Notes: generated by a model not told the origin, from the letters alone. A stretch of DNA of 64,000 nucleotides from an uncultured Candidatus Saccharibacteria bacterium (GCA_964631145.1 CAZVXT010000001.1:127151-191150), one strand, 5' to 3'; positions 1 to 40,581 are shown, counted from the stretch's first letter. Numbers and translations: made by a program.

Positions 1-3000
1 TACGGTTTAGATATGAATGTTACTACTTCGACTGGAGGCGTGATAGATACATATACAGGTGTCAATATTTCTCAGCTTACCAAGGGTACAAATAATGTTG
101 GTATTGCAATCGCAGAAGCAACAGGGACCAAACAAACTAATCTGCTTATTGGCACCACAACTCAACCAGCAGGGTCTTACTCTATATATAACTCTTCAAC
201 AGACAACAACTACTTTGCAGGAAAACTAGGCATCGCTACCACCGCTCCAGACAAACCTCTTGAAGTTAACAGCGCAACAGGTGCTGGTATTAGAATAACC
301 TACAATGATGCAGATGGTAGTGCAACTAACTACTCTGATTTCTCCGTATCATCTGGTGGTGACTTAACCATTGCTCCAAGTGGTGGGGATACTAACATCA
401 CTGGTAACTTGATTGTATCTTCCTTAACTTCAGGTGGTACTCAGTGTTTACAAGCAAACTCTTCTGGTGTTATCTCTGGCACAGGTAGTGCGTGTGGAGC
501 CGGGGGTGGCCTCACTGTCGGAACAACCGCTATTGCTTCTGGTGGTGCCAACAGAATTCTTTATGAAAATGGATCTACTACTTTAAGTTCAAGTAGTAAC
601 TTCACTTATGATGCCACTACTCTAGCTGTTACTACAGCTTCCACTACAGCATCTAACAAAACAATCAATATATCCCAAACTGGTGCTACTTCTGGAACAG
701 ACTACGCAGGTTACTTCTCAAACACAGGGGCTGCAACAACCAACGTAGGACTTTATTCAACAGCAACTGGTGCTACCAACAACTACGCTGCGATCTTTGA
801 CCAAGGTAATGTTGGGATTGGGATTACTACACCAGGTAATAAATTATGGGTAAGTGATAATACTACTAACCCAACTGTAACCATAGAAAATACCAATGCA
901 GTTGGGTATGCAATTGCTGCATATCGTGGTACGGCACGTGAGTATACTGTTGGTACTGCAGGGGCGAGCGAAACCGGATTTGGTTTAGCGAATAAGTTTT
1001 TTGTGTTCGATGGTACAGTGAGTGCTACTCGTTTAGTTATAGATACAAATGGGCTTATGGGTATTGGTACTAATGCTCCAGGTAAACAGTTAGATATTAA
1101 CTCTGCAACTGGCAACAATCTTCGCTTGACATACAACGACACAGATGGATCTGCTGCAAACTATGCAGACTTGCTCATGTCTTCTGGCGGCGATCTAACC
1201 ATTGCTCCAAGTGGTAGTGATACAGCTATTACCGGACAATTAGATGTCTCTGGACACTTGGCTGCTGGGGCTAACTCTGCAGTGAATGATGGTTCATTGC
1301 TATTTTCAGGAAGCACTTACAATACGATGCTGTCATTGCAAGAAAGTTATACTAACTTAACAGCTACTGATTATGTTGAAGGTATCACTAATTATATGGA
1401 GTTTAACCCTACAGCTCATGCTACGACTGAAATTTATGGTATAGATAATGAGTTAGTGGTTAAAACAGGGAACAACAAGAATATTCCAAGCATGTACGGC
1501 AACTTTACATCACTTTCTCATAACGGTACTGGTGCAGTTACTACTGCTATTGGGCAGTCTATTTTGTTGAATAATAGCGCTGCAGGCGGCACAATTACTA
1601 CTGCAAGAGGTTTGCAGGTAAATGTAGTAGATAATGGTACTAATGCTATTACTAATGCTACTGGTATTAGAGTTTTGGCAACATCAGCAGTGAACAGTGT
1701 CGGTATAAACATTGATCAAACTGTAGGAACTTCCAAACAAACCAATCTTCTCATTGGCACCACAACCCAGCCTGCAGGCTCTTACTCTATATATAACTCA
1801 TCAACAGACAACAACTACTTTGCAGGAAACCTAGGTGTTGGTGATTCTTCACCAAACTCACTCTTTACCGTAGGATCTGGCGACCTCTTCCAAGTAAACT
1901 CTTCTGGTGCTATTGCCGCAGCAACTGGTATTACATCTTCTGGAACAATCAACTTCTCTGGTCTTTCTGCATCTTCCGCAGTATATACCGATGGCTCTAA
2001 GAATTTAACTACTACTACACCAAGTAGCGGTACTATTGGATATTGGTCTAGGAGTGGGACTACTTTAAGTACTGCTAATGCAAACGATGTTATTACTGTT
2101 AGCTCTTCTACTGCTAACGCTACTGCTGTATACGCAACAGTAAGTGCTACTACTGGTACTAATTATGCTGGTAATTTTCAAGCCACAGGTGCTGCCACCA
2201 ATAATGTTGCTATGTACCTAAACGCTGCTAACGCTACAAACAATTATGCCTTACAAATTGCTTCGGGTAATATTTCAGCAGGAAGTAGTAATTTAACCGT
2301 TGGTCCAATAACAGTAGGCAATGGTACTGCAACAGCAAATGTCACTGGAGTGTATTCAGGAGTAAGTTCTGCAAGTGGCTCTAACTATGCGGGTAATTTT
2401 CAAGCCAGCGGAGCTGCGACAAATAATACGGGTCTGTATGTAAGTGCTACTGGTGCTACTAATAATAAAGCAATTTGGATAGTTAGCCCTGCCGCAAGTG
2501 CTAACAACTACGCTATCTATGACCAGAGTGGTGCACAGAGTTACTTTGCCGGCAACGTCGGTATTGGTGACACTTCACCAAATTCACTGTTCACTGTAGG
2601 CAATGGAGATTTATTCCAAATAAACTCTTCAGGACAAATTGGCTCCCAGCAAGCTCCTGTGTCTGATTACCTGTTTGCTCTGAACGGCAACACTACAAAT
2701 GATAATTCTCGAATCATTGATATAGTACAAACTAATGATTCAGGTGAAGATAACTCAAGGGTAATTAATGTATCCAATACAAGTAATATTGGAACTATTA
2801 GTAATGTCACCAAATCGATATATAATATTACCACTTCTATAAGGCCAACAGCTTCAATAATATCTACATCTTCTATTGCTTGGATGCAAGTTGTTGGTAA
2901 TAGTGTTAATGTTGATTTGTCCACAACAACTTTAGGTACTGGAACTGCTGGAACTCAAACAGTGTATGGGTATAGTGATCAAGTTATGTCTACATTTAAC

Positions 3001-6000
3001 CCTGTAATAAATGACACTGATGCAGGTGGTAGTAATACTGGGTTTGGCTACGGTGTGCATAGTACTTTATCTGGATCGCCTATTTTAACCAGTGTTTCCA
3101 GTACCACTACTTTTAATACATATTCTGGTTATTTTACAAATAGTGCTACAACAACTGGGAATGCAAATCTTACATATAATTCTTATGGGGTATATGGGTC
3201 TACTACAGGTAACTTAACTACTACTGGAACAACAACTCATTACGCTGGTTATTTTTCTGCAACTGGAACCGCAGATATTAATTATGGTATTTATTCTACA
3301 GTTTCTGGTGCTACTACTAACTACGCAGCTATCTTAACTGGTGGCAACGTTGGTATCGGCACTACAGTCCCAGACAAACCTCTTGAAGTTAACAGCGCAA
3401 CAGGTGCTGGTATTAGAATAACCTACAATGATGCAGATGGTAGTGCAACTAACTACTCTGATTTCTCCGTATCATCTGGTGGTGACTTAACCATTGCTCC
3501 AAGTGGTGGGGATACTAACATCACTGGTAACTTGATTGTATCTTCCTTAACTTCAGGTGGTACTCAGTGTTTACAAGCAAACTCTTCTGGTGTTATCTCT
3601 GGCACAGGTAGTGCGTGTGGAGCCGGGGGTGGTGGGATGAGTATCGGTGGATCCATTACTTCTGCAACAGCGGGGTCTGTATTATTCGCTGGTGCGGCTG
3701 GTGTATTAGCACAAAACAATAATGATTTCTTTTGGGATAATACCAATAAGCGTCTGGGTATAAATACTACAGCAGCTCCTAGTGCAAGCTTGCATGTGGT
3801 TTCATCTGGTGCAAAAACTGTCGCGGATACTGCGTCTTTAGTATCTAACACTTCAACGTCTTCTACTGCATCAATAGATAAAATTGGACTTAGGGTTTCT
3901 TCTACTGGCAGTTGGACTGGTACGAGTGCAAACAATATTGCACTTAAAGTAGATCCTGCTACCGGGGGTACTCAAAATATGGATATATTTAGTGGTCCAA
4001 ATGCTGTATCGTTAGCATGGGCAGGTGGAGAGTCGTTCGGTAAAAATTATTTCTCCTCTTTGAATGCTAGCACTTCAAATGCTACTATGCTTGTTTTGAA
4101 TGAAAGCAATAGTACATCTTCCTTTACTCAGTATGGGGTATTTGGTAGCGCGGTTGGTTTGCATGCATCTGGTACGCGTACAAGAATTTCCGGTATGCAC
4201 TCATTTGCTTATCAAGAAGGGGATGGAAATGTTACACAGCTGCTCGGATATAGCGCCGGTTTACAGTCTGATACGAGTGGTACAGTTTCAATAATGGCTG
4301 CGTTTAAAGCAGATACTAATTATCGATCTGCGGGTACTGTTTCTTTAAACAGTGCAATATATTTAGATGACCAATCTGGTGTTGCAAATACAGCTGCCAA
4401 TAATTATCAAATTTATTCTAATACCACTAGTCCCTTTGTAGTGAGGGCTGATGGTAATGTCGGTATTGGGCTTATTGCCCCTACCGGATTATTACATGTT
4501 AGACAGACTGCTGACAGTACTAATACATCAACTCCAATTGCATTATCTGTTGATAGTATAGGTAGTGCAGGTGAGTTAACTGCAGCTTCTGGTAATCAAA
4601 TCTTTGCACAGATTGCGCCAGTGATTAACCAAAGTGCAACTGGTAGCTATCGCGCATTAGATGTTAACGTAACCGAAACTACTACTTCAAATGTTACAGG
4701 ATTAAATCGTTTGGCTGACTTGCGTGTTGGCGGTAGTTCTAAATTAGCAATTTCAAATAATGGTTCTGTTACATTACAAAACGCTTCTGGGTTATTTACT
4801 TCTAGCTTAAGCGCTGGTACTTTCCAAAACCATTTAGTGAGAAGTGATGATTTTGCAACTACATGGACAACAAGCAGTATTACTGCGTTTAGTAATGATA
4901 CTCAAATTGCTCCAGACGGAAGTACTTCTGCAGAAAGCTTGGCAACAAGTGGTAGTGGTGGTTATGTACAACAAGATACTTCAACAGCTACCTCTTCTAC
5001 TGATTACACTTTCTCTGTATGGGCTCGTTCTACAAGTGGTACCCAAAACTTTAGTATGAGAATAGATGGAACTACAGGTGGAACAGGTACAGAAGTAACT
5101 CATACTGCTACTACAAGCTGGCAAAGGTTTAGCATAACTCAAACTTTGACTGGTGGTTTTACAGGAAATGTGCGTGTTCGTATTTATCCTGGAACTTCTG
5201 CAAGCACTGGTACTATTTATGCTTGGGGTGCTCAATTAGAAAAAGCTTCAAATGTAAATGGCTATGCAAAAACAACCACAGCCGCACTAACTAACTATAA
5301 TCGTGGTTCTTCTATATATTCTAATTTAGATGCAGCGACTGGATTCTCTTATGGCAACAGAAATATTATTCAAATTCAAACAGGTAATAATATAGATGCT
5401 ACTTATGTTGGACAGTTAATTCGTGTGATTGATAATGATTGTGCTACTGATTGTGATAACACAACTAAAGGTTTAGAAGTTCAAGCTTTCAGCGGTACCA
5501 ACTTAGCAGGTATTAACATGGGTATTGATACTTATGGCTATACTTTCGGTTTGAAAGCAACTACTACAGCACAAGCTAGTAATGTAGCTCAACCTGCTGC
5601 AATCTTTGCAGATTTAGATAATGGTTCTGCAACAACAACTGGTAATGCAATTCGCGCTTACACTGATAATGCAACATCAGCAAACTTGGTAAGTATTTAT
5701 CAAGAAACTTCTGCTTATACAGGAACTTTGTTAGCTCTAAGTGCTGGTAATAATAGTGGTAGCTTTGACAGTGGTAACTTCTTAAACTTTACTAATAATG
5801 ATAATACTCCAGGTACTCGTGGTACTGTGTTTAATGTTGATTATAAAGGTTTGTTAACAGTTTCTCCTTCGGATGCAGATAATACAAAAGCAATTGTTAT
5901 CGATACTGAAGAAAGTACGGCTGGACAAAGTGTATTCGAAATAGTTTCTGATGTGACTACCAATGACTCGTTAAAACTTCATGCAGAGGCAGACGGTAGT

Positions 6001-7278
6001 TTATTTGTCAGTTTGAGTGGAACACAAACCACAGTTGCTTTGTGTCATGCAAATAATGGACAAGTAACCAATGATGAAATTGTAGATTGTAGTGGAGCTC
6101 CATCCGACGTTGCCGAATATTTTGGAACTCGTGATGCTTCTATAGAAGCTGCTGAAGTTGTAGTTGGTGCTGAAGATGCAACTCCAATGCATCTTGATGG
6201 TATGCATACATCAAAGGCTTGGGTAAATAAAACTTCTAAGCCATATGACAATCGTATTCTTGGAGTTATTTCTACTTCACCTGCAGCGGTTTATGGAGAT
6301 GAGATTTTCTCACCTGAAGAAAATCCTCGCCCTGTTGCTTTGGTTGGACGTGTTCCTGTTAAAGTAAGTTTAGAAAATGGTCCAATACAAAAAGGCGATT
6401 ACTTAACATCTTCATCTACTCCTGGATTTGCAATGAAGTCAACTCGTCCAGGTATGGTAATAGGACAAGCTCTTAGTGGATATGATGGCAATGGCGAAGC
6501 TAAGGTTATGGTGTTTGTTAACCCATTTTATTACGATCCATCAGTAATAGTTGATAACAATGGAAATGTTCAATTACAACGTGGTTCTGCTTCCACTTCA
6601 TTAGTAGCAAATACAAATGGACAATCAGCATATTTGGTAAACCAAGAAGGTAGTGGAAACATTTTGCAATTGCAGCAAAATGGTATGGATAGATTTTTGG
6701 TAAAGAATAATGGAAGTGTAAATATAAACGTTCAACCCGTTACCGATCAAGATTTGGTATTAGAGGTTAAAGCAGGTGATAAGAGTGTGTTCTCTGTGAA
6801 TGCTAAAGGTTCTCCATTAATTTCTGGTGCAATTGTAATTAAAGATGATACCTTTGCTGGATCTGTTACCACAAATGAAGAAGGTTTGGCTGAGATAACC
6901 TTTAGCTATAATTTAGGTACCGGTAAGCCTGTGGTTCAATTAACAGCGGAATCTCAAATTCCAGTATTTGTGCAAATTGTTGATTTTAAGAAAGATGAAA
7001 ATGGTAATTATACTGGCTTTGTTATGAAGTCCTTCGATTTATTAGCTGGTCCAGTAAAAGCAATTGTTCATTATAATGTAACAGGCAAGGAAGATGGTTA
7101 TATTACTAGTGGTGATCAGCTTCAAGTTGCTCCAAATTCTTCAAACAGTCCAATGTTAATAATTGATAATGGGCAAGTAGTTGGCGGTGACTTTACTCCT
7201 ATTAACCCTGATGATGTAATTGGTGTTATTGGTAATGATTCTAATCAAGAGAGTGCTAATACAGAAGTAATTCCTTAA
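1..7278 (+). CDS. Giant repetitive surface protein (>2421 aa, 5'-truncated at window edge). Contains tail-fibre-like beta repeats, a carbohydrate-binding-module-like segment and a conserved C-terminal domain.
   Basis: Uninterrupted ORF open to position 1 (no stop upstream of the ATG at 13). Repeated motifs: 'NVGIGTTxPxxKLxV', 'YFAGNVGIGDTSPNSLFTVGNGDLFQ'. Internal perfect 263-bp direct repeat. CBM4/9-like stretch '...TDYTFSVWARS...YAWGAQLE'. S/T/G/N-rich composition typical of surface adhesins. Confidence 0.85.
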   Translation, partial: YGLDMNVTTSTGGVIDTYTGVNISQLTKGTNNVGIAIAEATGTKQTNLLIGTTTQPAGSYSIYNSSTDNNYFAGKLGIATTAPDKPLEVNSATGAGIRITYNDADGSATNYSDFSVSSGGDLTIAPSGGDTNITGNLIVSSLTSGGTQCLQANSSGVISGTGSACGAGGGLTVGTTAIASGGANRILYENGSTTLSSSSNFTYDATTLAVTTASTTASNKTINISQTGATSGTDYAGYFSNTGAATTNVGLYSTATGATNNYAAIFDQGNVGIGITTPGNKLWVSDNTTNPTVTIENTNAVGYAIAAYRGTAREYTVGTAGASETGFGLANKFFVFDGTVSATRLVIDTNGLMGIGTNAPGKQLDINSATGNNLRLTYNDTDGSAANYADLLMSSGGDLTIAPSGSDTAITGQLDVSGHLAAGANSAVNDGSLLFSGSTYNTMLSLQESYTNLTATDYVEGITNYMEFNPTAHATTEIYGIDNELVVKTGNNKNIPSMYGNFTSLSHNGTGAVTTAIGQSILLNNSAAGGTITTARGLQVNVVDNGTNAITNATGIRVLATSAVNSVGINIDQTVGTSKQTNLLIGTTTQPAGSYSIYNSSTDNNYFAGNLGVGDSSPNSLFTVGSGDLFQVNSSGAIAAATGITSSGTINFSGLSASSAVYTDGSKNLTTTTPSSGTIGYWSRSGTTLSTANANDVITVSSSTANATAVYATVSATTGTNYAGNFQATGAATNNVAMYLNAANATNNYALQIASGNISAGSSNLTVGPITVGNGTATANVTGVYSGVSSASGSNYAGNFQASGAATNNTGLYVSATGATNNKAIWIVSPAASANNYAIYDQSGAQSYFAGNVGIGDTSPNSLFTVGNGDLFQINSSGQIGSQQAPVSDYLFALNGNTTNDNSRIIDIVQTNDSGEDNSRVINVSNTSNIGTISNVTKSIYNITTSIRPTASIISTSSIAWMQVVGNSVNVDLSTTTLGTGTAGTQTVYGYSDQVMSTFNPVINDTDAGGSNTGFGYGVHSTLSGSPILTSVSSTTTFNTYSGYFTNSATTTGNANLTYNSYGVYGSTTGNLTTTGTTTHYAGYFSATGTADINYGIYSTVSGATTNYAAILTGGNVGIGTTVPDKPLEVNSATGAGIRITYNDADGSATNYSDFSVSSGGDLTIAPSGGDTNITGNLIVSSLTSGGTQCLQANSSGVISGTGSACGAGGGGMSIGGSITSATAGSVLFAGAAGVLAQNNNDFFWDNTNKRLGINTTAAPSASLHVVSSGAKTVADTASLVSNTSTSSTASIDKIGLRVSSTGSWTGTSANNIALKVDPATGGTQNMDIFSGPNAVSLAWAGGESFGKNYFSSLNASTSNATMLVLNESNSTSSFTQYGVFGSAVGLHASGTRTRISGMHSFAYQEGDGNVTQLLGYSAGLQSDTSGTVSIMAAFKADTNYRSAGTVSLNSAIYLDDQSGVANTAANNYQIYSNTTSPFVVRADGNVGIGLIAPTGLLHVRQTADSTNTSTPIALSVDSIGSAGELTAASGNQIFAQIAPVINQSATGSYRALDVNVTETTTSNVTGLNRLADLRVGGSSKLAISNNGSVTLQNASGLFTSSLSAGTFQNHLVRSDDFATTWTTSSITAFSNDTQIAPDGSTSAESLATSGSGGYVQQDTSTATSSTDYTFSVWARSTSGTQNFSMRIDGTTGGTGTEVTHTATTSWQRFSITQTLTGGFTGNVRVRIYPGTSASTGTIYAWGAQLEKASNVNGYAKTTTAALTNYNRGSSIYSNLDAATGFSYGNRNIIQIQTGNNIDATYVGQLIRVIDNDCATDCDNTTKGLEVQAFSGTNLAGINMGIDTYGYTFGLKATTTAQASNVAQPAAIFADLDNGSATTTGNAIRAYTDNATSANLVSIYQETSAYTGTLLALSAGNNSGSFDSGNFLNFTNNDNTPGTRGTVFNVDYKGLLTVSPSDADNTKAIVIDTEESTAGQSVFEIVSDVTTNDSLKLHAEADGSLFVSLSGTQTTVALCHANNGQVTNDEIVDCSGAPSDVAEYFGTRDASIEAAEVVVGAEDATPMHLDGMHTSKAWVNKTSKPYDNRILGVISTSPAAVYGDEIFSPEENPRPVALVGRVPVKVSLENGPIQKGDYLTSSSTPGFAMKSTRPGMVIGQALSGYDGNGEAKVMVFVNPFYYDPSVIVDNNGNVQLQRGSASTSLVANTNGQSAYLVNQEGSGNILQLQQNGMDRFLVKNNGSVNINVQPVTDQDLVLEVKAGDKSVFSVNAKGSPLISGAIVIKDDTFAGSVTTNEEGLAEITFSYNLGTGKPVVQLTAESQIPVFVQIVDFKKDENGNYTGFVMKSFDLLAGPVKAIVHYNVTGKEDGYITSGDQLQVAPNSSNSPMLIIDNGQVVGGDFTPINPDDVIGVIGNDSNQESANTEVIP

Positions 7279-7298: not shown

Positions 7299-8360
7299 AT
7301 GAAATCTTTTCAGCAAGAAAAAAATAATAAAAATTATATGAACGGCGATTATCGTAGAATAATATTATTCGTGATGATTGGTACTTTGATTGGCTCAACT
7401 CTTACGACAGCTATTTTTTACAATAGAATTTTTGGTAATAATTCTTTGAAAAATAACCCATTAGCTATTACTAATCGTTTGGATACAGGTAAGTATAAGT
7501 TTATTAATCCTTTATTGGATTCAAGTTATGCGAATGAAAGTGAAACTCTAAAGTGGTTTCCTGCAGAGAGACAGTTAAAAAGCTCAATTCAAGATATTAT
7601 AGCTTCTAACCCTGAGATTAATACTTCAGTATTCTTTTTGAATCTCAGAAACTCAGGGTGGTTTGGTGTTAATAGCGCTGATGCTTTTATCCCCGCTAGT
7701 TTATTAAAATTACCAATGTTAATTTCTTATTATAAATTAAGAGAAAAAGAAAAAGATTTATTTGATCAGAGAATTACTTATCAAGGAGAGGATTACAATA
7801 AGTATAGAAAAATTGGAGAAGGTGGTATAGTTGCTGGAAAAACATATACAGTTAAAGAATTAATGAATGAAATGATTATTAATTCTGATAACAATGCATT
7901 GCAATTACTGTATAAGTATCGTCAAAACTCTCTACAATTAATATTTGATGATTTAAAAATTTCATTACCATCAACTGATAGCGAAATAGCTGATAAAGAT
8001 TTTGTAACAAGTCGCGATATCGCCCGCTTTTTATTGGTATTATATAACGCATCATATTTAAGCCATGATGATTCTGAAGAGGCATTAAAAACATTATCCC
8101 AAACTAGTTTTAAAGATGGATTAGTTGCCGGTATCCCAAGCAACATTAATGTTAGTCATAAGTTTGGGGAAAGAGAATTATCAGAAAATGGAACTGTAAA
8201 AAATGAGTTGCATGATTGTGGTATCGTGTATAATGAAAAAATTCCTTATATAGTTTGTATTATGACAAAGGGTAAAAATATTGATGCTCAAAAAACTGTA
8301 ATTCAGCAAATTTCTAAAAGAATTTACGAAGGTGTTAGTAAGTTTTCAAATCAAGAGTAA
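7299..8360 (+). CDS. Class A beta-lactamase-like / PBP-like serine hydrolase, membrane-anchored
   Basis: N-terminal TM helix. 'SLLK' (SxxK) and 'SDN' motifs lie ~60 residues apart, as in class A enzymes. A KTG-like 'KFG' lies ~100 aa further on. Confidence 0.6.
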   Translation: MKSFQQEKNNKNYMNGDYRRIILFVMIGTLIGSTLTTAIFYNRIFGNNSLKNNPLAITNRLDTGKYKFINPLLDSSYANESETLKWFPAERQLKSSIQDIIASNPEINTSVFFLNLRNSGWFGVNSADAFIPASLLKLPMLISYYKLREKEKDLFDQRITYQGEDYNKYRKIGEGGIVAGKTYTVKELMNEMIINSDNNALQLLYKYRQNSLQLIFDDLKISLPSTDSEIADKDFVTSRDIARFLLVLYNASYLSHDDSEEALKTLSQTSFKDGLVAGIPSNINVSHKFGERELSENGTVKNELHDCGIVYNEKIPYIVCIMTKGKNIDAQKTVIQQISKRIYEGVSKFSNQE

Positions 8361-8379: not shown

Positions 8380-11300
8380 ATGACAAAAATAAAAATAAAA
8401 TTAAATTATCAAAACTACATTAAAGCATTGTTATATGTTGGTGTTTTTATCGTTGCTTCATTATGGTTTTTGGGAAGTGCGCAAAAAACGTTTGCTGCTA
8501 CAAGAACATGGACTGGCATTACAAGCAATTTATGGTCTGTTGCAAGTAACTGGGGTGGAACAGCGCCTGTAACTGGGGATGATTTGGTATTTCCTAGCGG
8601 TGCATCTAACTTATCCAATGTTAACGACTTAACAGAAAACACAATTATTAACTCCATTACTTTTACTGGCAGTGGTTATACCATTTCTGGTAATAAATTT
8701 ATTCTTGGAGCAGGTGTTGCTGGTATTACTGATAGTGTGTCTTCTGGTGGTAATACTCTTAGTTTGGATATTCGTTTGGATTCCACTCGTGACTTTTATG
8801 TCACAAACTCCACTGAAGCTTTAACTATAAGTGGAAGAATTGACGGTGTTGGTGGTATAAACAAAGAGGGATTGGGGACATTGATATTATCTGGTTCTAA
8901 TACTTATGGTGGTACTACAAAAATTAACACAGGTGTGATTAATGCAAGAACTAATACAGCACTGGGTACAATTGCGGCTGGTACAGAAGTTGTCGGTGGT
9001 GCAGCTTTGGAACTACAAAATTCTATTAGTATTAGTTATGAAGCTTTAACCTTAAGAGGTTATGGTGTATCTGGTGGAGGGGCTCTTCGTAATGTTGGTA
9101 ATAATAACACTTTTGGTGGTTTAATAACTTTAACTTCGGCAGGTGGTACAGAAATTTCCTCAGACTCTGGAACTCTTACAATTACAGGAGGTATTACAGG
9201 CGCTTTTCCTTTAGTTTTTGATGGCGCTGGTAATATAACTTTTTCAACCACACCTATTGCCACAGCTGCCGGTATTGTTACAAAAAATGGACTCGGTACA
9301 GTAACATATAATTTCCCTAATACTTATACTGGATTGACTACAGTTAATGCTGGTACGCTTGCTTATGGCATTGATAATGCAATTTTATCAGGAGCAGTCA
9401 CTGTGACTGGTGGTACATTAAACATTGGAACTTTTTCTGATATGGTTGGAACAGTAACTTTGGGTACTTTGGATTTGGCAAACGGAACAATTACTGGCTC
9501 GACCGGTATTTTGAGCAGTGCCACTTGGACAGTTTATAATGGAACCATTAGTGCAATTATTGCTGGTGATGGAGGTGCTCTTACAAAAAGTACGTCAGGA
9601 ACTGTGACTCTTACAAGAGCTAATCAGTACACTGGAGCCACTACTATTAGTTTAGGTGTTTTAAAAATTCAAGATAGCAACGCTTTAGGATTAATTGATG
9701 GTATTACCACAGTTACTGCGGGTGCAACTTTGCAAGTCGACGGAGATGGTTTATCTATTCCTGAATATATTACTTTTTCTGGTGCGGGGCATTTGTATTA
9801 TGGAGCTATTTTAAATAGCACAGGTAATAACACTCTGACAGGACTATTGACTATGGGCGCTACAGCAATGATCAAATCTAATATTGGAACTACTCTTACT
9901 GTAGACGGTAAAGGGCTTTTGGCTTCTGGTGTTCCATTGTATATAGGAGGTGCTGGTGATATTACCTTTACTTCAACTGCTCCTATATATGGAACCACTG
10001 CATCTTTAATAAAAAATGATAGCGGTGTTTTGAGAATACAATCTTTTAGCAACTACACTGGAGCTACTACTATAAATAGAGGTACCTTAGAATTAAGTTC
10101 TGCGGGTGCTTTGCCCTCTTCTGCTATAACAGTTAACTCCGGCGGCGTATTTACTATAGATAATAGCTCTATCTCTGCACTTAATCGTATGAGTGAAACG
10201 GCTGCGTTTACCATGAACGGTGGAAGATTTAATTTTATAGGTAGTGCTACTAACAGTACTTCTGAGTCTACCGGTGCTTTAACACTTTCCTCGGGACACA
10301 ATATTATTACTATTACCCCTGGTTCGGGCGGTTCTACTACTATGACTTTTGCAAGCTTGTCTCGTACTGCAGGTGCTACTGCGTTATTCCGTGGTACAAA
10401 CTTTGGCTCTACCCCAGCAGCTAATGTTTCTACTTTAATGTTTACCACAGCCCCTACCTTAACTGGGGCATCAGGGTCTGCAGGTACAACCACTGTAAGT
10501 GTTATTAAAGGTGTTTTCGGAGATGGTTATTTAAATGGTAATGGCAGTGATATGGTCACTTACAACGTTGGAAATACTAATGGTGTAAGACTTCTTAATG
10601 GTGCTGGGAATTCTGGAGAATATGCTACTACCTTAACAACAAATGCTAACGTCAAATTAACTGCAGATGTTGTAGCTAGTACAGCGAGTATTAATTCATT
10701 AATTTTAAATGGGTTTTCTATTACTAATCCTGGTAGTGCTGCTACATTAACAATCGCTTCTGCTTCTTTATCGGGAAATGTCTTGATAAATTCAGCTACT
10801 AGTATCTCTGGGTCTAATACTACGATCGGAATTACAACGTTGGAATTAGATATATTAGCCACTGCTAATGGAACTATTTCTGCTGTTGTTGGTACTGCGG
10901 TAACTGGATCTATGACGTTAAGTGGAACAGGCAATATTACATTAAGTGCAGCTAGCGCTTATACAGGAACAACTACTATAAATAACGCAACTCTTACTTA
11001 TGGTGCAAGTAATGTTTTGTCTAGTGGTGGTGTCACAGTAAATGGTGGTACATTAGACATTGGTGCAAATAGTGACACAGTAGGTGCAGTTATTTTACAA
11101 AATGGTGTAATTACAGGAGGTGTCGGTATTTTGACCGGAACTTCATATAGCTTTAGAGAAGGTACTGTTAGTGCAATTATTGCTGGAGCCGTTACGGTAA
11201 CCGTTGTGGCAACTAATGCTGCGTCTGATGCAGTTGTCACTATGACAAGAAACAATACTTATACTGGTGCCACTGCGATTTCTAGTGGAATTTTAAAATT

Positions 11301-14300
11301 AGGGGGAGCAGGTGACGGTACAAACTCTCCTTTAGGCACCATTGCAGCAGGTACGACGATAGCTAACGTTGCAGCTCTTGATCTTAATGGATTTACATTG
11401 TCGACCGCGGAAGCAATAACATCTATGAACGGATTAGGATATGGATTTGGGTCTACCGTGTCTGCTGGTAATAGTAATATGGGAGCATTAATGAATGGTT
11501 CTGGTTCATCGGTTAGTTATAGCGGAGCTATTACCTTGGCTGCGGCGTCACGTATTAATGCAGATTATGGCAGCTTAACTATAAGTAGTGCAATCTCCGG
11601 TGCTTTTGGTTTAACTGTTGGTGGTTTTAGCGATAGTACTTTTTCTGGCGTTATCGGTACAGGTACTGGAACTATTACAAAAGATGGTATTGGAGTATTA
11701 ACTCTTTCAAATAGTAATACTTACACTGGCGTAACTACTATTAGCGTAGGAACTGTAAAGTTGGGTACTGCAGGTGGTGCAACTAATACTCCTTTAGGTA
11801 CAACAGCTGGTGCAACTACTGTAGCTTTGGGCGCACGTTTAGATTTGGCTGGTTTTACCTTGGGGGCTGCTGAACCTTTAACTCTAAATGGAGTTGGATA
11901 TGGTCTCGGTGATTTTGCTAGCGGTGCTTTAATAAATAGCTCAATTGCCAGCGTAACTTATAGTGGACTACTTACGTTAGGTTCGGCATCAACTATTAAG
12001 GCTGATTCGGGAAATATTAGTTTGAGTAATGCGGGAACCATAACTGGTGCAACTTTTGCGTTAACATTAGGTGGAGTTGGAACAGGGACAGTGTCTAGTA
12101 TTATTGGAACGACTACAGGTACTGTAACAAAAATTGATACTGGAACATGGACTCTTGCCGGGGTTAATACTTATACAGGTGCAACTAACGTCAACCTTGG
12201 AACTTTAAAATATGGAGTTAATGATGCAGCTGGTGGCGGACCTCTTGGAACAGCTGCTGCAGGAACAAGCGTTTTTAGCGGTGCTGTTTTAGACTTTAAT
12301 GGTTTTTCTACAGTTACTTTAGCTGAGGTGCTTACTATAAATGGACGAGGAATTGGTAATGGCGGTGCTATTGTAAATAGCGCAGGAGGTCTTAAGAGTC
12401 AACTTGGTGGAGTTGTGTTAGGTAGTGATTCTCGCATTTCAATATCATCAGGTACATTAACATTTAATGGAGGTGTAACTGGTGCCTTTGCTTTGTATGT
12501 TGGTGGAGCAGGAAATGTGACATTTACTACCGGGGTGCTTGCTATGGGTGCAGGGTCATTAGTCAAACAAGGAGCGGGAACTGTAACGGCAACAGGCACT
12601 CATACTTATACCGGTGTGACGCGTATTGATGCTGGAACTTTTGCATATGGAAGCAATGTTACGGTTCTGGCAGGTACCAATCTAACTGTAGCTGGAGGTG
12701 TATTTGATATGGCTGCTAGTACTGATACTATTGGTACAGTAACTTTGATTGATGGGACTATACAAAATGGTACTCTGACAGCTACAACTAGCTACACTTT
12801 TGAAAAGGGTACTGTTAGTGCTGTTCTCGCAGGTACGACTTTGCCAATGACTAAAAATACAAATAACACCCTAACTTTAACAGCTGCAAATACAAATACT
12901 GGAACTTTAACCATTAATGCTGGTAGTGTTGTATTTAGTGGTTCCGGTAGTGCAACGGCGATTACAGGTTTAACTCTAAACTTAGGATCAACGTTAACAT
13001 TAGATAATTCTACTACAGCAGTTGCAAGTCGCCTGCCAGATGCGTTGGCTGTAACTATGAATGGAGCTAATTTCAACTTTATTGGTAATACTGCTGCAGC
13101 TTCATCAGAAACAGCTGGTGCGTTGACTCTTTCCTCAGGTCATAATGTTGTGACTATTACTCCTGGTGCTGGTGGGTCTACAACAATGACTTTTGCGAGT
13201 TTTGCCCGCACCGCTGGTGCAACAGTGCTCTTTAGAGGTACCAGCCTTGGTGCAACTCCAGCTGCTAATGTTTCTACACTGTTGTTTACTACATCAACTG
13301 GTATATTAACCGGTGCCGCAGGTGCCGCTAACTCTACTACTGTTAGTGTAATTAAAGGTGCCTTTGGAGACAGTTCTTTAAGTGGTAATGGAAGTGATAT
13401 GGTTACCTATAATACAGGAAATACTAATGGCTTAAGACTATTGAATGGCGCTGGTTTTAGTGGGGAGTATGCAACAAACTTGGCTACATTAAACTCTAAT
13501 GTAAAATTATCTGCTGATGCTGCTGCAACCACACAAAGTATAAACTCTCTTATTTTAAATGGTTTTTCTATTACTAATCCAGGAACTGCTCAAACTCTTA
13601 CTTTAGCTTCTGCATCACTTGCAGGAAATATTTTGATGAATTCTGCTACCAACATAGCTGGTGCTAATGCAACGATTGGTATTACGACGTTAGAATTAGA
13701 TATCTTAGCTACTGCCAATGGTACGGTGTCTGCAGTAGTTGGTACAGCTGTGGCAGGTTCGTTGGTTCTTAGTGGAAGCGGTAATGTAACCTTTAGCGCA
13801 GCTAATGCTTATACCGGTACAACTTTTATAAATAATGCAACTCTAACATACGGCGCAAGTAATGTACTGTCTAGCGGTGGTGTAACCATGGTTAGCGGTA
13901 CTTACAATTTAAATGGTAATTCTGATACAATTGGGGCTTTGGTGGTGAATGCAGCAAGGATTGATAGTGGTGCTGGGACTTTAACTTTTAGCGGCTCGTT
14001 TACTAGCACAGCAAATAATAATGTAACTACCATTGTATTGGGTAATTTGGCGTTGGGTGGGGCTGGAACTTTTAACATTGGAAATGGATTAATGGATAAC
14101 GATGTTGTTATTTCTGCAGTTATTAGCGGTGCTACTACTTTGACTAAATCAACTGGAGCTGGTGTTTTACTTCTTTCAGGTAGTAATACTTACACTGGTT
14201 TAACTACAGTTAGTGCTGGTACTATTCGTCTAGGTGCTACGGGAGGCGCTACTAATACACCACTTGGCACGACAGCCGCCGGTACTACAGTTTCTGGTGC

Positions 14301-17300
14301 AAGCTCTGCTTTAGACCTAAATGGGTATACGTTGGGAACTGCGGAACCACTCACTTTAAGCGGAGCTTTAGCTACAGGAGCTCTGCAAAACACTTCTAGT
14401 ACCGCGGTTACTTATAGTGGATTGATTACTTTAGGTGCTGCTAGTACTATAATTTCTAACTACGGTGATATTAATATTTCTAATGGTGGTACTATTACAG
14501 GTGCAACATTTGGTTTAACTATTGGTGGTGCGGGTAATGGAACATTATCTAGTATATTAGGAACCACTAGTGGAACTTTAACAAAAAATGGTCTTGGTGT
14601 GTGGACAGTCTCCGGTTCCAGTACTTATACAGGGTTAACAACCATTAGTGCTGGAACTCTAAGGTTGGGTTCAGCAGGTGGTGCAACCAATACTCCTTTG
14701 GGTACAACAGGTGGTGCTACTTCAATAACTAGTGGTGCAATTTTGGATTTAAATGGATTTACATTAGGAACTGCTGAGGCTCTTACTATTAACGGTACCG
14801 GTATCGCAAGTATCGGAGCGCTTATTACAAGCTCCGGAAGCGCTACTTCTTATAGCGGTGCCATTACTATGGGTGCTGCTTCGCGTGTAGCTAATTACGG
14901 TAGTGGTGAATTTACCATAACTGGTGCGATATCTGGAAACTTTGCATTAACTACTGTAACTGTAGGTGGAATAACTCAATCTTCTGGTAGTGTTTGGTCT
15001 GGTACTGGGGCTTTGGTAAAAGAAGGATCTGGTGTATTAACTTTAGCTGGTCAGAATTCGATGACCGGTGCAATGACTGTAAGCACAGGAACCTTAAGGC
15101 TTGGTGCTAATGGCGGAGTTACAAATACACCATTGGGTACTATAGCGGGTGGAGTTACGGTATCGGCAGGTGCGGTACTAGATTTATCAACTTTTACAGT
15201 AGGCGGTGCTTCAACTTGGGAACCTTTAACTTTAAACGGTAGTGGTTTATTAAACGGTGGGGCATTGATAAGTAATTCTTCAACAGGTAGTAGCTTTGCA
15301 ACAATAGCCCAGACTAACTCTCGCATTGTTAATAATGGTGCTGGGACATTAACTATTACTGGTGCTGTAACAGGTGCTTCAACATTTTGGGTTGGTGGTT
15401 CTGGAAATACAGCCATTTCTGGTGCACTTAATACAGCTGGTTTGTTATTAACTAAATACGGTTCTGGGACATTAACTCTTAGCAGTGCTGTAAATATAAA
15501 CACTTCTTTGGTTCGTATTAATGCTGGTACTTTGGCTTACGCTGTGGCAGATGCGCTTTCAACCCCGGCTGTAACTGTAGCCGGAGGTACGTTAAATTTA
15601 AACGGATTTAATGAAACAAATATCGGAGCTATCACATTAATTGATGGTAGTATAGTTAACACTGGTGCAGCCGCTACACTAACTTCTACAGCTACATATA
15701 CTTTAGAAAACGGCACAATAAGCGCTGCCCTTGGTGGTACTGTTGTTGCTGCTATTGCAAAAAATACTGCCGGCAGAGTTATACTGTCTGGTGACAATTC
15801 GTTCAGCGGTGCGTCTGCTACTATTGCGGTGAATGCAGGGTATCTTAATTTGCGCCATAACAATGCTTTAGGGGCGGCTGCCAGTGCTAATACGACTACA
15901 ATTTCTGGTGGAGCAACCGTGGAATTAGAAAACAATATCACTATTCCAAGTGTTAAAGCATTTACTGTTAACGGCACTGGTGTTGCAAAATCAGGTGCAA
16001 TCAGAAACGTTAGTGGTACCAATACTATTTCTGCAAATATTACTTTAGGTTCAACCAATGTTCGTATTAACTCTGATAGTGGCACTTTAACAATTCCAAC
16101 TATATCAGGAAATACCTTTAATGTAATTTTAGGAGGTTCTGGTGATACTACAGTTACAGGCGCTATCGGTACTACTAGTGGTTCTGTAACAAAAGATGGT
16201 TCTGGGACCTCTACATTATCTGGTACTAATACTTACACAGGAAGCACTACTATTATTTTAGGAACTATTGCAGCAAATAGTTCTGCATCAATCGGTAATG
16301 GTAGTTCTACTAATACTTTAATTTTTAATGGAGGAACCTTAAAAGCTACTGGTACTATTACGTCTCTTGCGACTAGAGCAGTAAGTTTATATGGCAATGG
16401 AACAATTGACACCAATGGAAATAGTGTTAGCATAGCTGGTACAGTTGGATCTATCGGTGGACTTACAAAGAGTGGTCTTGGTACATTAACTCTCACTGGC
16501 GTTACTGTAATTGGAGGGGACTTAAATATTTCTGCTGGTACTTTTGTAGCACCAACTTCGCTAACATTAAATGGAAATTTGAGTAATAGCGGTACATTTA
16601 CCCATAGCAGTGGAACTGTAACTATTACACCTACAACACCATCTAATACTATTAGTATTACGGGAAGTTCTGGTATTACATTTAATAACCTGACTAATAC
16701 CACACCGGGGTCAACTATTAAATTCCAAAACGGTAATACATATGCATTTAGTGGAACCTTAACTTTAACGGGAACGGAAACTGCTCCTATATGGTTAAGC
16801 AGTGTGTCTCCTGGATCTCAATGGAATGTAACTTTAGCCACTACAGCACTGACCTGGGTTGCTGTCCAAGATTCTAATTGCAGTGGTGGACAATCCATTA
16901 CTGCAGGAAATCAAACTATCCTTGATCAAGGTAATAATACCGGGTCTTGTTGGTTGTTTATTAGCCGTAGTTCTGGCGGCGGTGGTGGACCAAGTGAGGG
17001 CGGTCCTGGTGCTGGTGGTAACAGCGGTGGTAATGGAGGTAGTGGTAACGGTAATAGTGGTAGTGGAGGTAATGTTCAGGCTACAGCTACTGCAACTTTA
17101 CAAAGCGGTGCGGTAAATAATGTAATTTTAGGAGTTGGTGGCAGTGGATATACTGATATTCCATTAGTATGTTTCAGCGGTGGTTCTCCTAGCGTAGATG
17201 GAGTTGTAGTCGCAATTATATCTGGTGGGGCAGTAACAGGATTTAATTTAATCTCAGGGGGTAGCGGATATGGATCCATACCTTTAGTAATTATTGCAGC

Positions 17301-17488: not shown

Positions 17489-18418
17489 TTGATTTTTAAA
17501 GGACAAAAAAATAAAAAAATAAGTAAAATTATCAAGTTATATATATTGATAGTAATTTTATTTTTCCCATCATTTTTAAGTATAAATATTGCACATTCAG
17601 CTTCGCAAAATTTGGATGTAACGGCTGTTGTAGTTGATGAAAATGCTTTACCGAGTTCAGGTAGTGGGACTCTTACCGGAACAGTTGTATTGACTGGAAA
17701 TATTTTTCCAGGAGCTAAACTAACATTGCTCAAAGACGGTGTTATTGTGACGACTTTGGTAGTGGGTGGTGATGGCAAATTTCAGATTACAATGAATAAC
17801 TTAAGCTTTGGCTCTTACCAAGTATCTTTACTTGCTGAAGATCCTCAAGGAGTTCAATCTGCACCTTTTACCACTAATGTTAATTTACAAAACACCCAAC
17901 CTATTTCTCTTAACAATGTTTTAATACCTCCAACTTTAAGTTTTAAGTCCACTGTAATTTCTCAGTCAGAAAACATTAATGCTTATGGATATTCTGTACC
18001 AAACTCTACAGTGAGTTTGGAATTACCGGGAAGCGGGCTTTTGGCAAATGCTAATACTGATAGTAATGGTTACTATCAAATTACTACGCATTCTAGTTTA
18101 ACTCCCGGAACTTATTTATTTAGAACTAAAGTTAAATTTAAGGATGTGTATAGTTTATATAGTAAGCCAGTTCAAGTTTTAATTTATAATGGACCACCTG
18201 TGCCGGGAGATGTTAAAGATGATGGAAATCCAAAACCCCCTCCGCAATTTTCTTCTTGTATGGATTTTAATAAGGATCGACGGGTAAATTTGGTAGACTT
18301 CTCTATATTATTATTTTGGTTTAATAAAAGTGAACCCCCAAGTAGTGTAGATTGTAATAAGGATAGGGTGATAGATATCAAAGATTTTAGTATCTTAATG
18401 TATTTTTGGACAGGATAA
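17489..18418 (+). CDS. Secreted Ig-like/Big-domain protein with a C-terminal dockerin-like tandem Ca-binding repeat
   Basis: N-terminal hydrophobic anchor. C-terminus 'DFNKDRRVNLVDFSILL' and 'DCNKDRVIDIKDFSILM' fits the dockerin DxNxDxxVNxxDxxxL pair. The start is TTG at 17489; an alternative start is possible. Confidence 0.65.
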   Translation: MIFKGQKNKKISKIIKLYILIVILFFPSFLSINIAHSASQNLDVTAVVVDENALPSSGSGTLTGTVVLTGNIFPGAKLTLLKDGVIVTTLVVGGDGKFQITMNNLSFGSYQVSLLAEDPQGVQSAPFTTNVNLQNTQPISLNNVLIPPTLSFKSTVISQSENINAYGYSVPNSTVSLELPGSGLLANANTDSNGYYQITTHSSLTPGTYLFRTKVKFKDVYSLYSKPVQVLIYNGPPVPGDVKDDGNPKPPPQFSSCMDFNKDRRVNLVDFSILLFWFNKSEPPSSVDCNKDRVIDIKDFSILMYFWTG

Positions 18419-21385: not shown

Positions 21386-21394
21386 TAATAAAAG

Positions 21395-40501: not shown

Positions 40502-40581
40502 CTCACTTCAACCCGTTCGATTCCTCTATACCTACACCAATAATAAAACACCAGACAAGCTGATGTTTTATTATTGGTAGC
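40502..40581. repeat. Direct repeat copy 2 (~80 bp), overlapping the 3' end of tRNA-Glu
   Basis: Identical to copy 1 over 67 nt, plus 'CTCACTTC' with a 5-nt indel. Confidence 0.85.

What the first reader, a model, noticed from the sequence alone, without database searches (positions are those of the whole stretch)
247..3632. 263-bp perfect direct repeat and tail-fibre-like architecture inside the first giant gene
Nucleotides 247-509 and 3370-3632 are identical, encoding the same ~88-aa module 3.1 kb apart. A second ~95-bp imperfect repeat lies at 127-222 and 1735-1830. Such perfect long repeats are substrates for recombinational expansion or contraction (phase or size variation) and are assembly hazards. 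The protein combines phage-tail-fibre-like 'GIGTTxPxxKLxV' beta repeats, a CBM4/9-like segment (~aa 1640-1740) and a conserved ~100-aa C-terminal domain ('VISTSPAAVYGDE...VALVGRVPVKV...GDYLTSS...GFAMK...VIGQALS'). That domain resembles auto-chaperone-type C-terminal domains of fibre proteins, but I cannot confirm this.
Basis: seen in the sequence. Interest (0 to 1): 0.55.

Follow-up and report, generated by a model that had tools for sequence, protein, structure and literature searches.

The report
Giant phage-fibre-like surface protein gene
The repeat is real and lies inside a 3347-residue secreted protein of a tiny symbiotic-type (Patescibacteria) bacterium that is built like a phage tail fibre, with a sugar-binding module and a probable self-cleaving folding domain. 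It is an interesting but not unprecedented kind of cell-surface adhesin.

Summary
Nt 247-509 and 3370-3632 are identical (263 bp, in frame, 1041 codons apart). Nt 128-230 and 1733-1835 are 91% identical.

The perfect pair has no synonymous differences. The older pair has 9 synonymous differences in 35 codons, so the 263-bp block is a recent intragenic gene conversion or duplication. Three independent short-read assemblies break exactly at its right edge, which shows the repeat is real and is an assembly hazard. No length variant was seen.

The gene is cut by the window's left edge. The full protein (P0146) has 3347 aa and an N-terminal signal peptide, and the surrounding genome is cellular and Patescibacteria-like.

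Architecture:
- Repeated 'GIGTxxPxxxLxV' modules, whose homologues carry phage tail-fibre domains.
- A CBM4/9-type jelly-roll at aa 1609-1759.
- A ~145-aa domain remotely homologous to the phi29 gp12 auto-chaperone (Peptidase_G2). It keeps the scissile motif S|DVAEYF and the Glu whose Gln substitution is seen in the uncleaved crystal form.
- A C-terminal beta-sandwich.

The G2-like domain defines a very large family (about 17,900 clusters at 50% identity), mostly in giant proteins, that scores below Pfam's threshold.

Most likely this is a trimeric, self-processing adhesin fibre. Cleavage, trimerisation and size variation are inferred, not shown.

The parts
1..7278 (+). 3' 7.3 kb of a giant gene, 2425 of 3347 codons, with stop TAA at 7276-7278. 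The first 922 codons lie upstream of the window. They include the signal peptide and YadA-head-like repeats.
   Evidence: There is no stop in frame 1 before nt 13. P0146 (3347 aa, NCBI contig 653,896 bp) is identical over all 2425 aa.
247..509 (+). Copy 1 of the 263-bp perfect repeat. It encodes PDKPLEVNSATGAGIRITYNDADGSATNYSDFSVSSGGDLTIAPSGGDTNITGNLIVSSLTSGGTQCLQANSSGVISGTGSACGAGGG.
3370..3632 (+). Copy 2 of the 263-bp perfect repeat, in frame and 1041 codons downstream of copy 1.
   Evidence: Logan contigs L001-L003 begin at nt 3603, so their first 31-mer is 3603-3633.
128..230 (+). Older repeat, copy 1 (KQTNLLIGTTTQPAGSYSIYNSSTDNNYFAG). With copy 1 of the perfect repeat it makes the first module a mosaic of two donor types.
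   Evidence: Of 35 codons, 24 are identical, 9 differ synonymously and 2 differ non-synonymously.
1733..1835 (+). Older repeat, copy 2 (91% identical).
1060..1314 (+). Third, diverged copy of the ~88-aa module (GIGTNAPGKQLDINSATGNNLRLTYNDTDGSAANYADLLMSSGGDLTIAPSGSD...). It is 62% identical in nt to copy 1.
3352..3396 (+). One of seven 'G(I/V)G(T/D)xxPxxxLxV' motifs in the window. The others start at nt 229, 814, 1060, 1834, 2560 and 4462. The left edge of the perfect repeat falls inside this motif.
3643..3825 (+). The most widely conserved fibre segment, 'GSVLFAG..WDNTNKRLGI..P..LHV'. It is shared with proteins that carry phage tail-fibre domains.
   Evidence: phrog_5906 gives E 1.3e-5.
4825..5277 (+). 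CBM4/9-type beta-jelly-roll (lectin-like) domain, aa 1609-1759.
   Evidence: Pfam CBM_4_9 gives E 8.9e-5. AF2 pLDDT is 80-96. Foldseek PDB top hits are CBM4/16/22. phrog_5939 'tail protein' gives 7.2e-10.
5293..6105 (+). Stalk or tip region between the CBM and the predicted cleavage site, aa 1765-2035. It is conserved only in close relatives and is poorly modelled as a monomer.
6103..6123 (+). Predicted scissile site S2035|D2036-V-A-E2039-Y-F. In full-length numbering this is S2957|D2958 with E2961.
   Evidence: hhalign places it on gp12 S691|D692-FAEYF. The D and E are at least 90% conserved. The motif occurs in 204 of 222 domain copies. The uncleaved structure 3SUC has Gln at 695.
6106..6540 (+). 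Peptidase_G2-like intramolecular-chaperone domain, aa 2036-2180.
6685..7107 (+). C-terminal beta-sandwich domain, aa 2229-2369, followed by a disordered tail. It is conserved in about 30 close relatives only.

Best explanation
The gene encodes a 3347-aa Sec-exported, probably homotrimeric surface fibre (adhesin) of a Patescibacteria/CPR-type bacterium. It is built from the same parts as phage receptor-binding fibres.

Proposed mechanism (all steps inferred unless marked otherwise):
1. The C-terminal Peptidase_G2-like domain brings three chains into register. It templates folding of the long beta-structured shaft in the way the phi29 gp12 D4 domain does.
2. Once the trimer is formed, the conserved Glu (E2039) catalyses cleavage of the S2035|D2036 bond.
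3. Cleavage frees a 390-aa C-terminal fragment consisting of the G2 core plus a beta-sandwich.
4. The mature fibre carries a CBM4/9-type lectin domain near its distal end, which would bind a glycan on a partner or host cell.

The shaft is a string of paralogous ~90-250-aa modules joined at 'GIGTxxPxxxLxV' motifs. The 263-bp perfect repeat is a recent gene-conversion or duplication tract between two such modules. Its edges are sharp and the left edge lies in the motif.

Because the copies are in frame and 1041 codons apart, RecA-type recombination between them could give 2306-aa or 4388-aa variants. That potential exists, but no variant was observed.

Shown: the repeats, the domain homologies and folds, the export signal, the cellular context and the assembly break.
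Inferred: trimerisation, cleavage, glycan binding, the adhesin role and length variation.
For: Repeat and its age:
- The repeat is exact and in frame.
- It has 0 synonymous differences in 87 codons. The older pair has 9 synonymous differences in 35 codons, and the third module copy is only 62% identical in nt.
- Three independent assemblies branch exactly at the repeat's end.
- Long perfect internal repeats recur in the family: 33 of 146 relatives have exact repeats of 30 aa or more, 10 have 80 aa or more, and the longest is 724 aa.

G2-like domain:
- The family profile hits PDB 3gqh (gp12 C-terminal domain) from its first residue, D692, at E 8.4e-4.
- Pfam Peptidase_G2 gives E 9.4e-4. It is also the most frequent Pfam hit among relatives, in 8 of 79.
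- hhalign against gp12 gives 92.8% probability and E 3.9e-7, with S|D-x-A-E-Y-F aligned.
- The D and E are at least 90% conserved.
- 3SUC, the uncleaved gp12 structure, differs from wild type by E695Q.
- The Dpo31 D4 domain starts at Asp664 of A|DYAEYF. Constructs lacking D4 are insoluble (PMC13317679).
- AF2 pLDDT for the domain is above 90.
- BFVD gives 51 hits at E<=1e-3, including a 'Preneck appendage protein' (TM 0.63) and tail fibres.

CBM domain.

Fibre modules.

Secreted and cellular:
- P0146 has an N-terminal signal peptide.
- There is a weak YadA_head hit.
- The neighbours are aminoacyl-tRNA synthetases, TsaD, RNase J and tRNA-Glu, and no phage genes were seen.
- Relatives are mostly Patescibacteria. 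The closest genome hit is a Candidatus Saccharibacteria MAG.
Against: - The Pfam G2 score (19.1 bits) is below the curated cut-off of 25. Confident profile alignment covers only the N-terminal half of the domain.
- Foldseek against the PDB did not return 3gqh or 3suc in its top 50.
- Unlike gp12, the domain is followed by 245 aa.
- Relatives often have 2-3 copies of the domain, and some carry a lectin after it. One example is H_lectin in P0058. This fits poorly with a chaperone that is simply discarded.
- Release of the gp12 chaperone needs ATP (Xiang et al. 2009, from memory; the ATP site is mentioned in PMC13317679). An exported protein would fold where there is no ATP.
- The shaft regions were modelled poorly as a monomer, so the trimeric fibre is not shown.
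- No variant lengths were seen.
Confidence: 0.6

Rival explanations
1. The G2-like domain is a retained structural node rather than a self-cleaving, discarded chaperone. It would act as a trimerisation knob related to phage cement or decoration proteins. The C-terminal beta-sandwich would then be the true functional tip.
For: - The domain is internal, with a median of 266 aa after it in 146 relatives.
- Many relatives have 2-3 copies.
- Some have a lectin downstream (P0058 H_lectin).
- Three relatives give weak Phage_cement_2 hits.
- Foldseek PDB top hits are phage capsid or decoration chains.
Against: - The D-x-A-E motif at the position of the gp12 scissile bond is kept in 92% of full domain copies.
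- It includes the Glu that is replaced by Gln in the uncleaved gp12 crystal form.
- A purely structural role would not obviously need that motif.
Confidence: 0.28
2. The perfect repeat is maintained as a contingency device. Frequent recombination between the two copies would switch the fibre between 2306, 3347 and 4388 aa, giving programmed size variation.
For: - The repeat is in frame, 263 bp long and perfectly identical.
- Perfect repeats are common in the family.
Against: - No variant was detected. Three samples carry identical sequence downstream of the repeat.
- There is only a single pair of repeats, not an array.
- A recent conversion event explains the perfect identity without any selection for switching.
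- No dedicated recombinase lies next to the gene.
Confidence: 0.15
3. The repeat is an assembly artefact, either a spurious duplication or a mis-join in the MAG.
For: - The genome is a metagenome-type assembly.
- Repeats longer than the k-mer are classic sites of error.
- No read spanning the repeat was available.
Against: - Three independent k=31 assemblies branch exactly at the last base of copy 2. Two different right-hand continuations of the same 30-mer therefore exist in the reads.
- With two distinct left and two distinct right flanks, the only path that uses all the segments is the assembled one.
- The reading frame is preserved through both copies.
- Relatives show the same kind of repeat.
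Confidence: 0.05
4. The gene is a tail fibre of a prophage or tailocin, not a cellular adhesin.
For: - The G2-like domain, the CBM and the fibre modules all have phage tail counterparts.
- The region upstream of the gene lies outside the window.
Against: - The protein has an N-terminal Sec-type signal peptide.
- At 3347 aa it is very large for a tail fibre.
- The downstream neighbours are a beta-lactamase-family protein, a 3000-aa PATR-repeat protein, cohesin/dockerin-like proteins and housekeeping genes. No capsid, portal or terminase genes are present.
- tblastn against 50,697 phage genomes finds only a 77-85-aa core match in jumbo phages.
Confidence: 0.05

Closest known systems
Bacillus phage phi29 gp12 pre-neck appendage, C-terminal D4 auto-chaperone (MEROPS/Pfam Peptidase_G2; PDB 3GQH, 3SUC), and Cobetia phage Carin-1 Dpo31 D4
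   Same: - Profile-level homology anchored at the scissile bond: S|D-x-A-E-Y-F here, S691|D692-FAEYF in gp12, A|D664-YAEYF in Dpo31.
- The catalytic-position Glu is conserved.
- The body of the domain is beta-stranded.
- It sits after a long beta-structured fibre or spike that carries a carbohydrate-recognising domain.
   Different: - It scores below Pfam's threshold.
- It is followed by 245 aa that include a beta-sandwich.
- Relatives can carry 2-3 copies.
- The host protein is a 3347-aa exported cellular protein, not a virion component.
- Folding would occur outside the cytoplasm, so the ATP-dependent release step of gp12 may not apply.
Endosialidase-type intramolecular chaperone (Peptidase_S74) of K1F, T5 pb1 and GA-1 fibres and of eukaryotic MyRF
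   Same: - The logic is the same: a C-terminal trimerisation chaperone that cuts itself off after the fibre folds.
- Homologues of this gene's shaft modules occur in front of S74 domains.
   Different: - No S74 match was found in this protein.
- The fold and catalytic residues differ. S74 uses a Ser-Lys dyad (from memory; the catalytic Ser is mentioned in PMC4690869). The G2 type uses a Glu.
Giant surface proteins or adhesins of Patescibacteria, Omnitrophota and other episymbionts
   Same: - A very large, poorly annotated, exported protein in a reduced genome, next to other giant surface-protein genes.
- Such ORFs have been proposed to act as host-attachment adhesins (PMC10066038). Adhesins are required for epibiotic growth (PMC10633639).
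   Different: - Here a concrete architecture and maturation mechanism can be proposed.
- No experimental link to host attachment exists for this gene.
Trimeric autotransporter adhesins (YadA family)
   Same: - Repetitive trimeric fibre logic.
- Weak YadA_head-like repeats in the N-terminal part.
   Different: - No membrane anchor or translocator domain is present.
- The cell is probably monoderm.
- The C-terminus is G2-like instead.

Membership tests
Peptidase_G2 (phi29 gp12-type intramolecular chaperone) | Match to the Pfam PF11962 model at or above its gathering score | tested here: not met
   The score is 19.1 bits against a cut-off of 25, with E 9.4e-4, on window:6040-6600. Eight of 79 relatives hit at E<=0.01, and the best is 1.5e-4.
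Peptidase_G2 (phi29 gp12-type intramolecular chaperone) | Profile-level homology to the solved gp12 D4 domain | tested here: met
   hmmsearch of the A1 profile hits 3gqh_A at E 8.4e-4, starting at chain residue 1. hhalign gives 92.8% probability and E 3.9e-7, and 92.4% with a domain-only alignment. Only the N-terminal half aligns confidently.
Peptidase_G2 (phi29 gp12-type intramolecular chaperone) | Scissile motif small|D-x-A-E-x-(Y/F) with the conserved Glu (gp12 E695) | tested here: met
   S2035|DVAEYF aligns with S691|DFAEYF. The D and E are at least 90% conserved. The motif is present in 204 of 222 domain copies, and P1 is A, S, G or T. 3SUC carries E695Q.
Peptidase_G2 (phi29 gp12-type intramolecular chaperone) | Structural similarity to the D4 fold | tested here: inconclusive
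Peptidase_G2 (phi29 gp12-type intramolecular chaperone) | Domain forms the extreme C-terminus and is removed | tested here: not met
   245 aa follow the domain, including a confident beta-sandwich. The median tail in relatives is 266 aa.
Peptidase_G2 (phi29 gp12-type intramolecular chaperone) | Autocleavage after trimerisation; ATP-dependent release | not testable with these tools
   This needs protein expression or mass spectrometry.
CBM4/9 carbohydrate-binding module | Pfam PF02018 at gathering score | tested here: not met
   The score is 23.3 bits against a cut-off of 25.9, with E 8.9e-5. The homologue P0128 reaches 49.4 bits.
CBM4/9 carbohydrate-binding module | Beta-jelly-roll fold of the CBM4/16/22 type | tested here: met
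   AF2 pLDDT is 80-96 for aa 1609-1759. Foldseek PDB top hits are 3jxs, 1gui, 2zew and 4bj0, at E 7e-7 to 1.5e-6 and TMt 0.63-0.67.
CBM4/9 carbohydrate-binding module | Binds a carbohydrate | not testable with these tools
   No ligand-site analysis or assay was done.
Peptidase_S74 (endosialidase chaperone) | Pfam PF13884 match | tested here: not met
   The gene gave no Pfam family. S74 is present only in some homologues of the shaft module.
Phage virion tail fibre | Encoded among phage structural genes; no export signal | tested here: not met
   The full protein has a signal peptide. The downstream context is cellular. The upstream context was not seen.
Diversity-generating retroelement TR/VR pair | Near-identical repeats that differ at template adenines, with a reverse transcriptase nearby | tested here: not met
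   The repeats are 100% identical and both lie inside the ORF. No reverse transcriptase was found among the window ORFs scanned. Not every ORF was scanned.
Trimeric autotransporter adhesin (YadA) | YadA head repeats plus a C-terminal membrane anchor | tested here: not met
   YadA_head gives E 8e-4 and 20.2 bits against a cut-off of 25, and it lies outside the window. No anchor domain was found.

The most novel reading that the evidence does not exclude
The G2-like domain marks a very large family that current libraries do not recognise at threshold: about 17,900 clusters at 50% identity, in proteins up to 5766 aa. In this reading, ultrasmall episymbiotic bacteria build their host-attachment fibres with phage receptor-binding-protein machinery. 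This version of the domain would work outside the cell, without ATP. It can be internal or repeated, so it would cut giant precursors into several non-covalently held pieces or release functional tips carrying a lectin or Ig-like domain. Frequent perfect intragenic repeats would let fibre length and module order change quickly.
Probability: 0.3. Interest if true: 0.65.

Novelty: new variant of a known kind. Interest (0 to 1): 0.45.

Why it matters
Giant ORFs of Patescibacteria and other episymbionts are usually left as 'hypothetical', yet they are the prime candidates for host attachment. This one can be read as a self-assembling, self-cleaving, lectin-tipped fibre. That reading gives a testable maturation site (S|DVAEYF, with the Glu four residues on). 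It also supplies a domain profile that would annotate thousands of similar proteins, and a concrete example of phage fibre parts used by cells. On the practical side, the repeat explains why short-read assemblies of this locus fragment. It also marks where length variants should be looked for.

Tried and rejected
Searches that found nothing or little:
- Single-sequence searches of the gene against Pfam, NCBIfam, PHROGs and PDB sequences gave nothing usable. Only profiles or isolated domains gave signals.
- Foldseek of the two-domain C-terminal model against the PDB gave no hit at E<=1e-3.
- tblastn of the repeat module against phage genomes found no match. tblastn of the whole protein found only one short core hit.

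Attempts to test the repeat junctions and length variants:
- Exact look-up of cut products failed even for the positive control, so the test is uninformative.
- An exact search for the repeat core in JGI metagenome contigs gave 0 hits.
- P0146 itself is not on record in the contig index.

Other dead ends:
- The window's own genome is not among the GTDB representatives. The best hit is a Saccharibacteria MAG at 63% identity.
- The Xiang et al. 2009 paper could not be read. The catalytic role of E695 therefore rests on the E695Q sequence of 3SUC and on my recollection.
- The run accessions are not mentioned in any held paper.

Ideas considered and rejected:
- A DGR TR/VR pair: the repeats are 100% identical and no reverse transcriptase was found.
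- A further G2-like copy elsewhere in the window: none was found.

Full report
**1. Observation**

The two stretches 247-509 and 3370-3632 are identical over exactly 263 nt. Identity ends abruptly on both sides. The 27 nt to the left are about 70% identical and the right flank is unrelated. The spacing is 3123 nt, or 1041 codons, so both copies are read in the same frame and encode the same 87 residues.

The second repeat is 128-230 versus 1733-1835, at 91% identity and 535 codons apart. Apart from an unrelated 68-bp pair near a tRNA gene, no other exact repeat of 30 nt or more exists in the 64-kb window. Chance is excluded.

The ORF has no stop before nt 13, so the gene runs off the left edge of the window. 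The exhaustive protein search returned P0146. It is 3347 aa long, comes from an NCBI contig of 653,896 bp, and its last 2425 residues are identical to the window's translation. I number residues from window nt 1; add 922 for the full protein.

**2. Is the repeat real, and how old is it?**

The small gene just downstream (7299-8360) was found on three Logan short-read assemblies from different runs. All three contigs are identical to the window for 10.7-13.5 kb. All three start at window nt 3603, so their first 31-mer is the last 30 nt of copy 2 plus the first unique base. A k=31 de Bruijn graph does exactly this when a 30-mer has two different continuations. The repeat, with two distinct right flanks, is therefore present in the reads of three samples. 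It does break short-read assemblies.

Codon comparison dates the events:

| Pair | Codons compared | Identical | Synonymous differences | Non-synonymous differences |
|---|---|---|---|---|
| Perfect repeat (247-507 / 3370-3630) | 87 | 87 | 0 | 0 |
| Older repeat (127-231 / 1732-1836) | 35 | 24 | 9 | 2 |
| Module copy A vs copy B (nt 1060-1314) | 60 | 16 | 24 | 20 |

The older pair looks like an old duplication under purifying selection. The third copy of the same module (nt 1060-1314) is only 62% identical in nt to copy 1. The first module is a mosaic: its upstream part resembles nt 1733-1835 and its downstream part equals nt 3370-3632. The left breakpoint lies inside the conserved 'GIGTxxP' motif.

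The simplest reading is a recent gene-conversion or duplication tract between paralogous modules.

The same pattern is common in the family. Of 146 relatives, 33 have exact internal repeats of 30 aa or more, 10 have repeats of 80 aa or more, and the longest is 724 aa.

Recombination between the two copies would give in-frame proteins of 2306 or 4388 aa. No such variant was seen, and my attempts to test for one failed.

**3. What the gene is**

*Context.* The context is cellular. The window holds a class I aminoacyl-tRNA synthetase, TsaD, malic enzyme, tRNA-Glu, YchF, KsgA, TrpS/TyrS-type synthetase, RNase J and phosphoglucomutase, and no phage structural genes. The immediate neighbours are a beta-lactamase-family protein, a 3000-aa PATR/autotransporter-repeat protein and cohesin/dockerin/Ig-like proteins. 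This is a surface-protein gene cluster. Relatives are overwhelmingly Patescibacteria, and the closest genome hit is a Candidatus Saccharibacteria MAG.

*Export.* P0146 begins with a basic n-region, a 20-residue hydrophobic stretch and AQA|T. I read this by eye as a Sec signal peptide.

*Shaft.* The N-terminal 922 aa, outside the window, contain weak YadA-head-like repeats. Residues 1-1560 are paralogous modules punctuated by seven 'G(I/V)G(T/D)xxPxxxLxV' motifs.

Homologues of the module region are short proteins in which the same segments sit in front of other domains: Peptidase_S74, Mtd_N plus T4 gp36, PTR (phage tail repeat), a pectate-lyase-like domain, or a C1q/BclA_C head. The shared segments include the 88-aa repeated unit and the 'GSVLFAG..WDNTNKRLGIGT..P..L.V' piece. 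Cultured phage genomes, however, show no BLAST-level match to the modules.

**4. CBM-like segment**

- As an isolated segment it hits Pfam CBM_4_9 at E 8.9e-5. The score of 23.3 bits is just under the 25.9 cut-off.
- It hits PHROG 5939 'tail protein' at 7.2e-10.
- The AF2 model is confident for aa 1609-1759, with pLDDT 80-96.
- The best PDB matches of that model are CBM4, CBM16 and CBM22 modules, at E about 1e-6 and TM 0.6-0.7. Phage tail-spike and tail-fibre chains also match.

The fold assignment is sound. The ligand is unknown.

**5. The 'C-terminal' domain**

About 150 residues (aa 2030-2180) are conserved across all hits. The following 200 residues are conserved only in about 30 close relatives.

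Evidence that the domain is related to the gp12 auto-chaperone:
- A profile of 102 sequences hits a single PDB entry, 3GQH. This is the released C-terminal auto-chaperone of phi29 gp12, and the alignment starts at its first residue, D692.
- Pfam Peptidase_G2 is the only family hit for the isolated domain (E 9.4e-4, sub-threshold). It is also the commonest hit among relatives.
- hhalign against gp12 residues 642-854 gives 92.8% probability and E 3.9e-7. It aligns gp12 W-S691|D692-F-A-E695-Y-F with P-S2035|D2036-V-A-E2039-Y-F.
- The Asp and Glu are at least 90% conserved in the family. The motif occurs in 204 of 222 full domain copies, with a small P1 residue.
- PDB 3SUC, the uncleaved gp12 structure, differs from wild type at this very Glu, as E695Q.
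- In the recently solved Dpo31 tail-spike, the homologous D4 domain is traced from Asp664 of A|DYAEYF. It is trimeric and is lost from the expressed protein. Constructs without it are insoluble (PMC13317679).
- Earlier literature states that the gp12 C-terminal domain is an auto-chaperone cleaved off after folding, and that chains lacking it aggregate (PMC3357383, PMC4690869).
- AF2 models the domain with pLDDT above 90.
- Against predicted viral structures, the model finds 51 matches at E<=1e-3. They include a 'Preneck appendage protein' and several tail fibres.

Weaknesses:
- The Pfam threshold is not reached.
- Only the N-terminal half aligns confidently.
- PDB Foldseek did not return 3GQH.

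**6. How it differs from gp12**

- The domain is not terminal. A linker and a confident beta-sandwich (aa 2229-2369) follow it.
- In the exhaustive search the domain has 17,926 relatives at E<=1e-3 among 50%-identity cluster representatives, and 6005 at E<=1e-10.
- Among the best 146, the median length is 1728 aa and the maximum is 5766 aa. The median tail after the domain is 266 aa, and many proteins have two or three copies.
- Some members carry a lectin after the domain. In P0058 the domain lies at 461-627 and H_lectin at 680-739.

These features leave room for the rival view that the domain is a retained trimerisation node, or that the cleaved fragment stays attached and is functional.

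**7. Verdict**

The repeat is a genuine, recent, in-frame conversion or duplication tract in a modular gene. It is a proven assembly hazard and a potential, but undemonstrated, source of length variation.

The product is a giant exported, phage-fibre-like adhesin of a Patescibacteria-type bacterium. It carries a CBM4/9-fold lectin domain and a divergent Peptidase_G2-type intramolecular chaperone.

I rate it a new variant of a known kind, of moderate interest. Its value lies mainly in the size of the unannotated G2-like family and in the testable maturation mechanism for episymbiont giant proteins.

Noticed in passing
window 37909-37976 and 40514-40581: A 68-bp perfect direct repeat. Each copy holds a tRNA-3'-end-like stretch (CGTTCGATTCC...CACCA), a terminator-like hairpin and TGGTAGC. 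The second copy overlaps the last 7 nt of tRNA-Glu(ttc) at 40575-40649 on the minus strand. The 2.6 kb between the copies holds a DUF4238+SEC-C ORF and a 160-aa ORF, and an AEP-like primase ORF (37032-37622) lies just upstream. These may be att-like ends of a small integrated element. No integrase was seen.
   Followed up: partly
window 8380-17382 (+): A second giant gene (3000 aa) with 14-17 PATR / autotransporter beta-strand repeats (Pfam E 3e-37, TIGR02601 E 3.6e-52). The three Logan contigs end inside it at nt 14308, 15907 and 17099. It probably also contains sequences that break assemblies.
   Followed up: no
window 7299-8360 (+): A class-A-type beta-lactamase family protein (Beta-lactamase2, E 1.7e-33) lies between the two giant surface-protein genes. 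It starts 20 nt after the stop of the first giant gene and ends 19 nt before the start of the second, so the three may be co-transcribed.
   Followed up: no
window 17489-22438 (+): A run of ORFs with bacterial Ig-like, cohesin and dockerin-like matches, followed by a CHASE-domain protein. It continues the surface-protein cluster.
   Followed up: no
window 48147-49796 (-), region about 48-54 kb: A large serine recombinase (Resolvase + Recombinase + zinc ribbon) lies in a stretch whose G+C content (0.39-0.41) is higher than that of its surroundings (about 0.34). It may be an integrated element.
   Followed up: no
relatives P0033, P0034, P0158, P0160, P0174 and others (not in the window): Many family members carry two or three copies of the G2-like domain 150-300 aa apart, most with their own D-x-A-E motif. 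This is unexpected for a C-terminal chaperone that is discarded after use.
   Followed up: partly
window 6037-6096 (aa 2013-2032): Two cysteines (ALCH...VDCSGAPS) lie just upstream of the predicted cleavage site. The VDCSGAPS context is kept in the closest relatives, and one Cys is a majority residue in the family consensus. I did not examine whether they form a disulfide or a ring like the P22 tailspike cysteine annulus.
   Followed up: no
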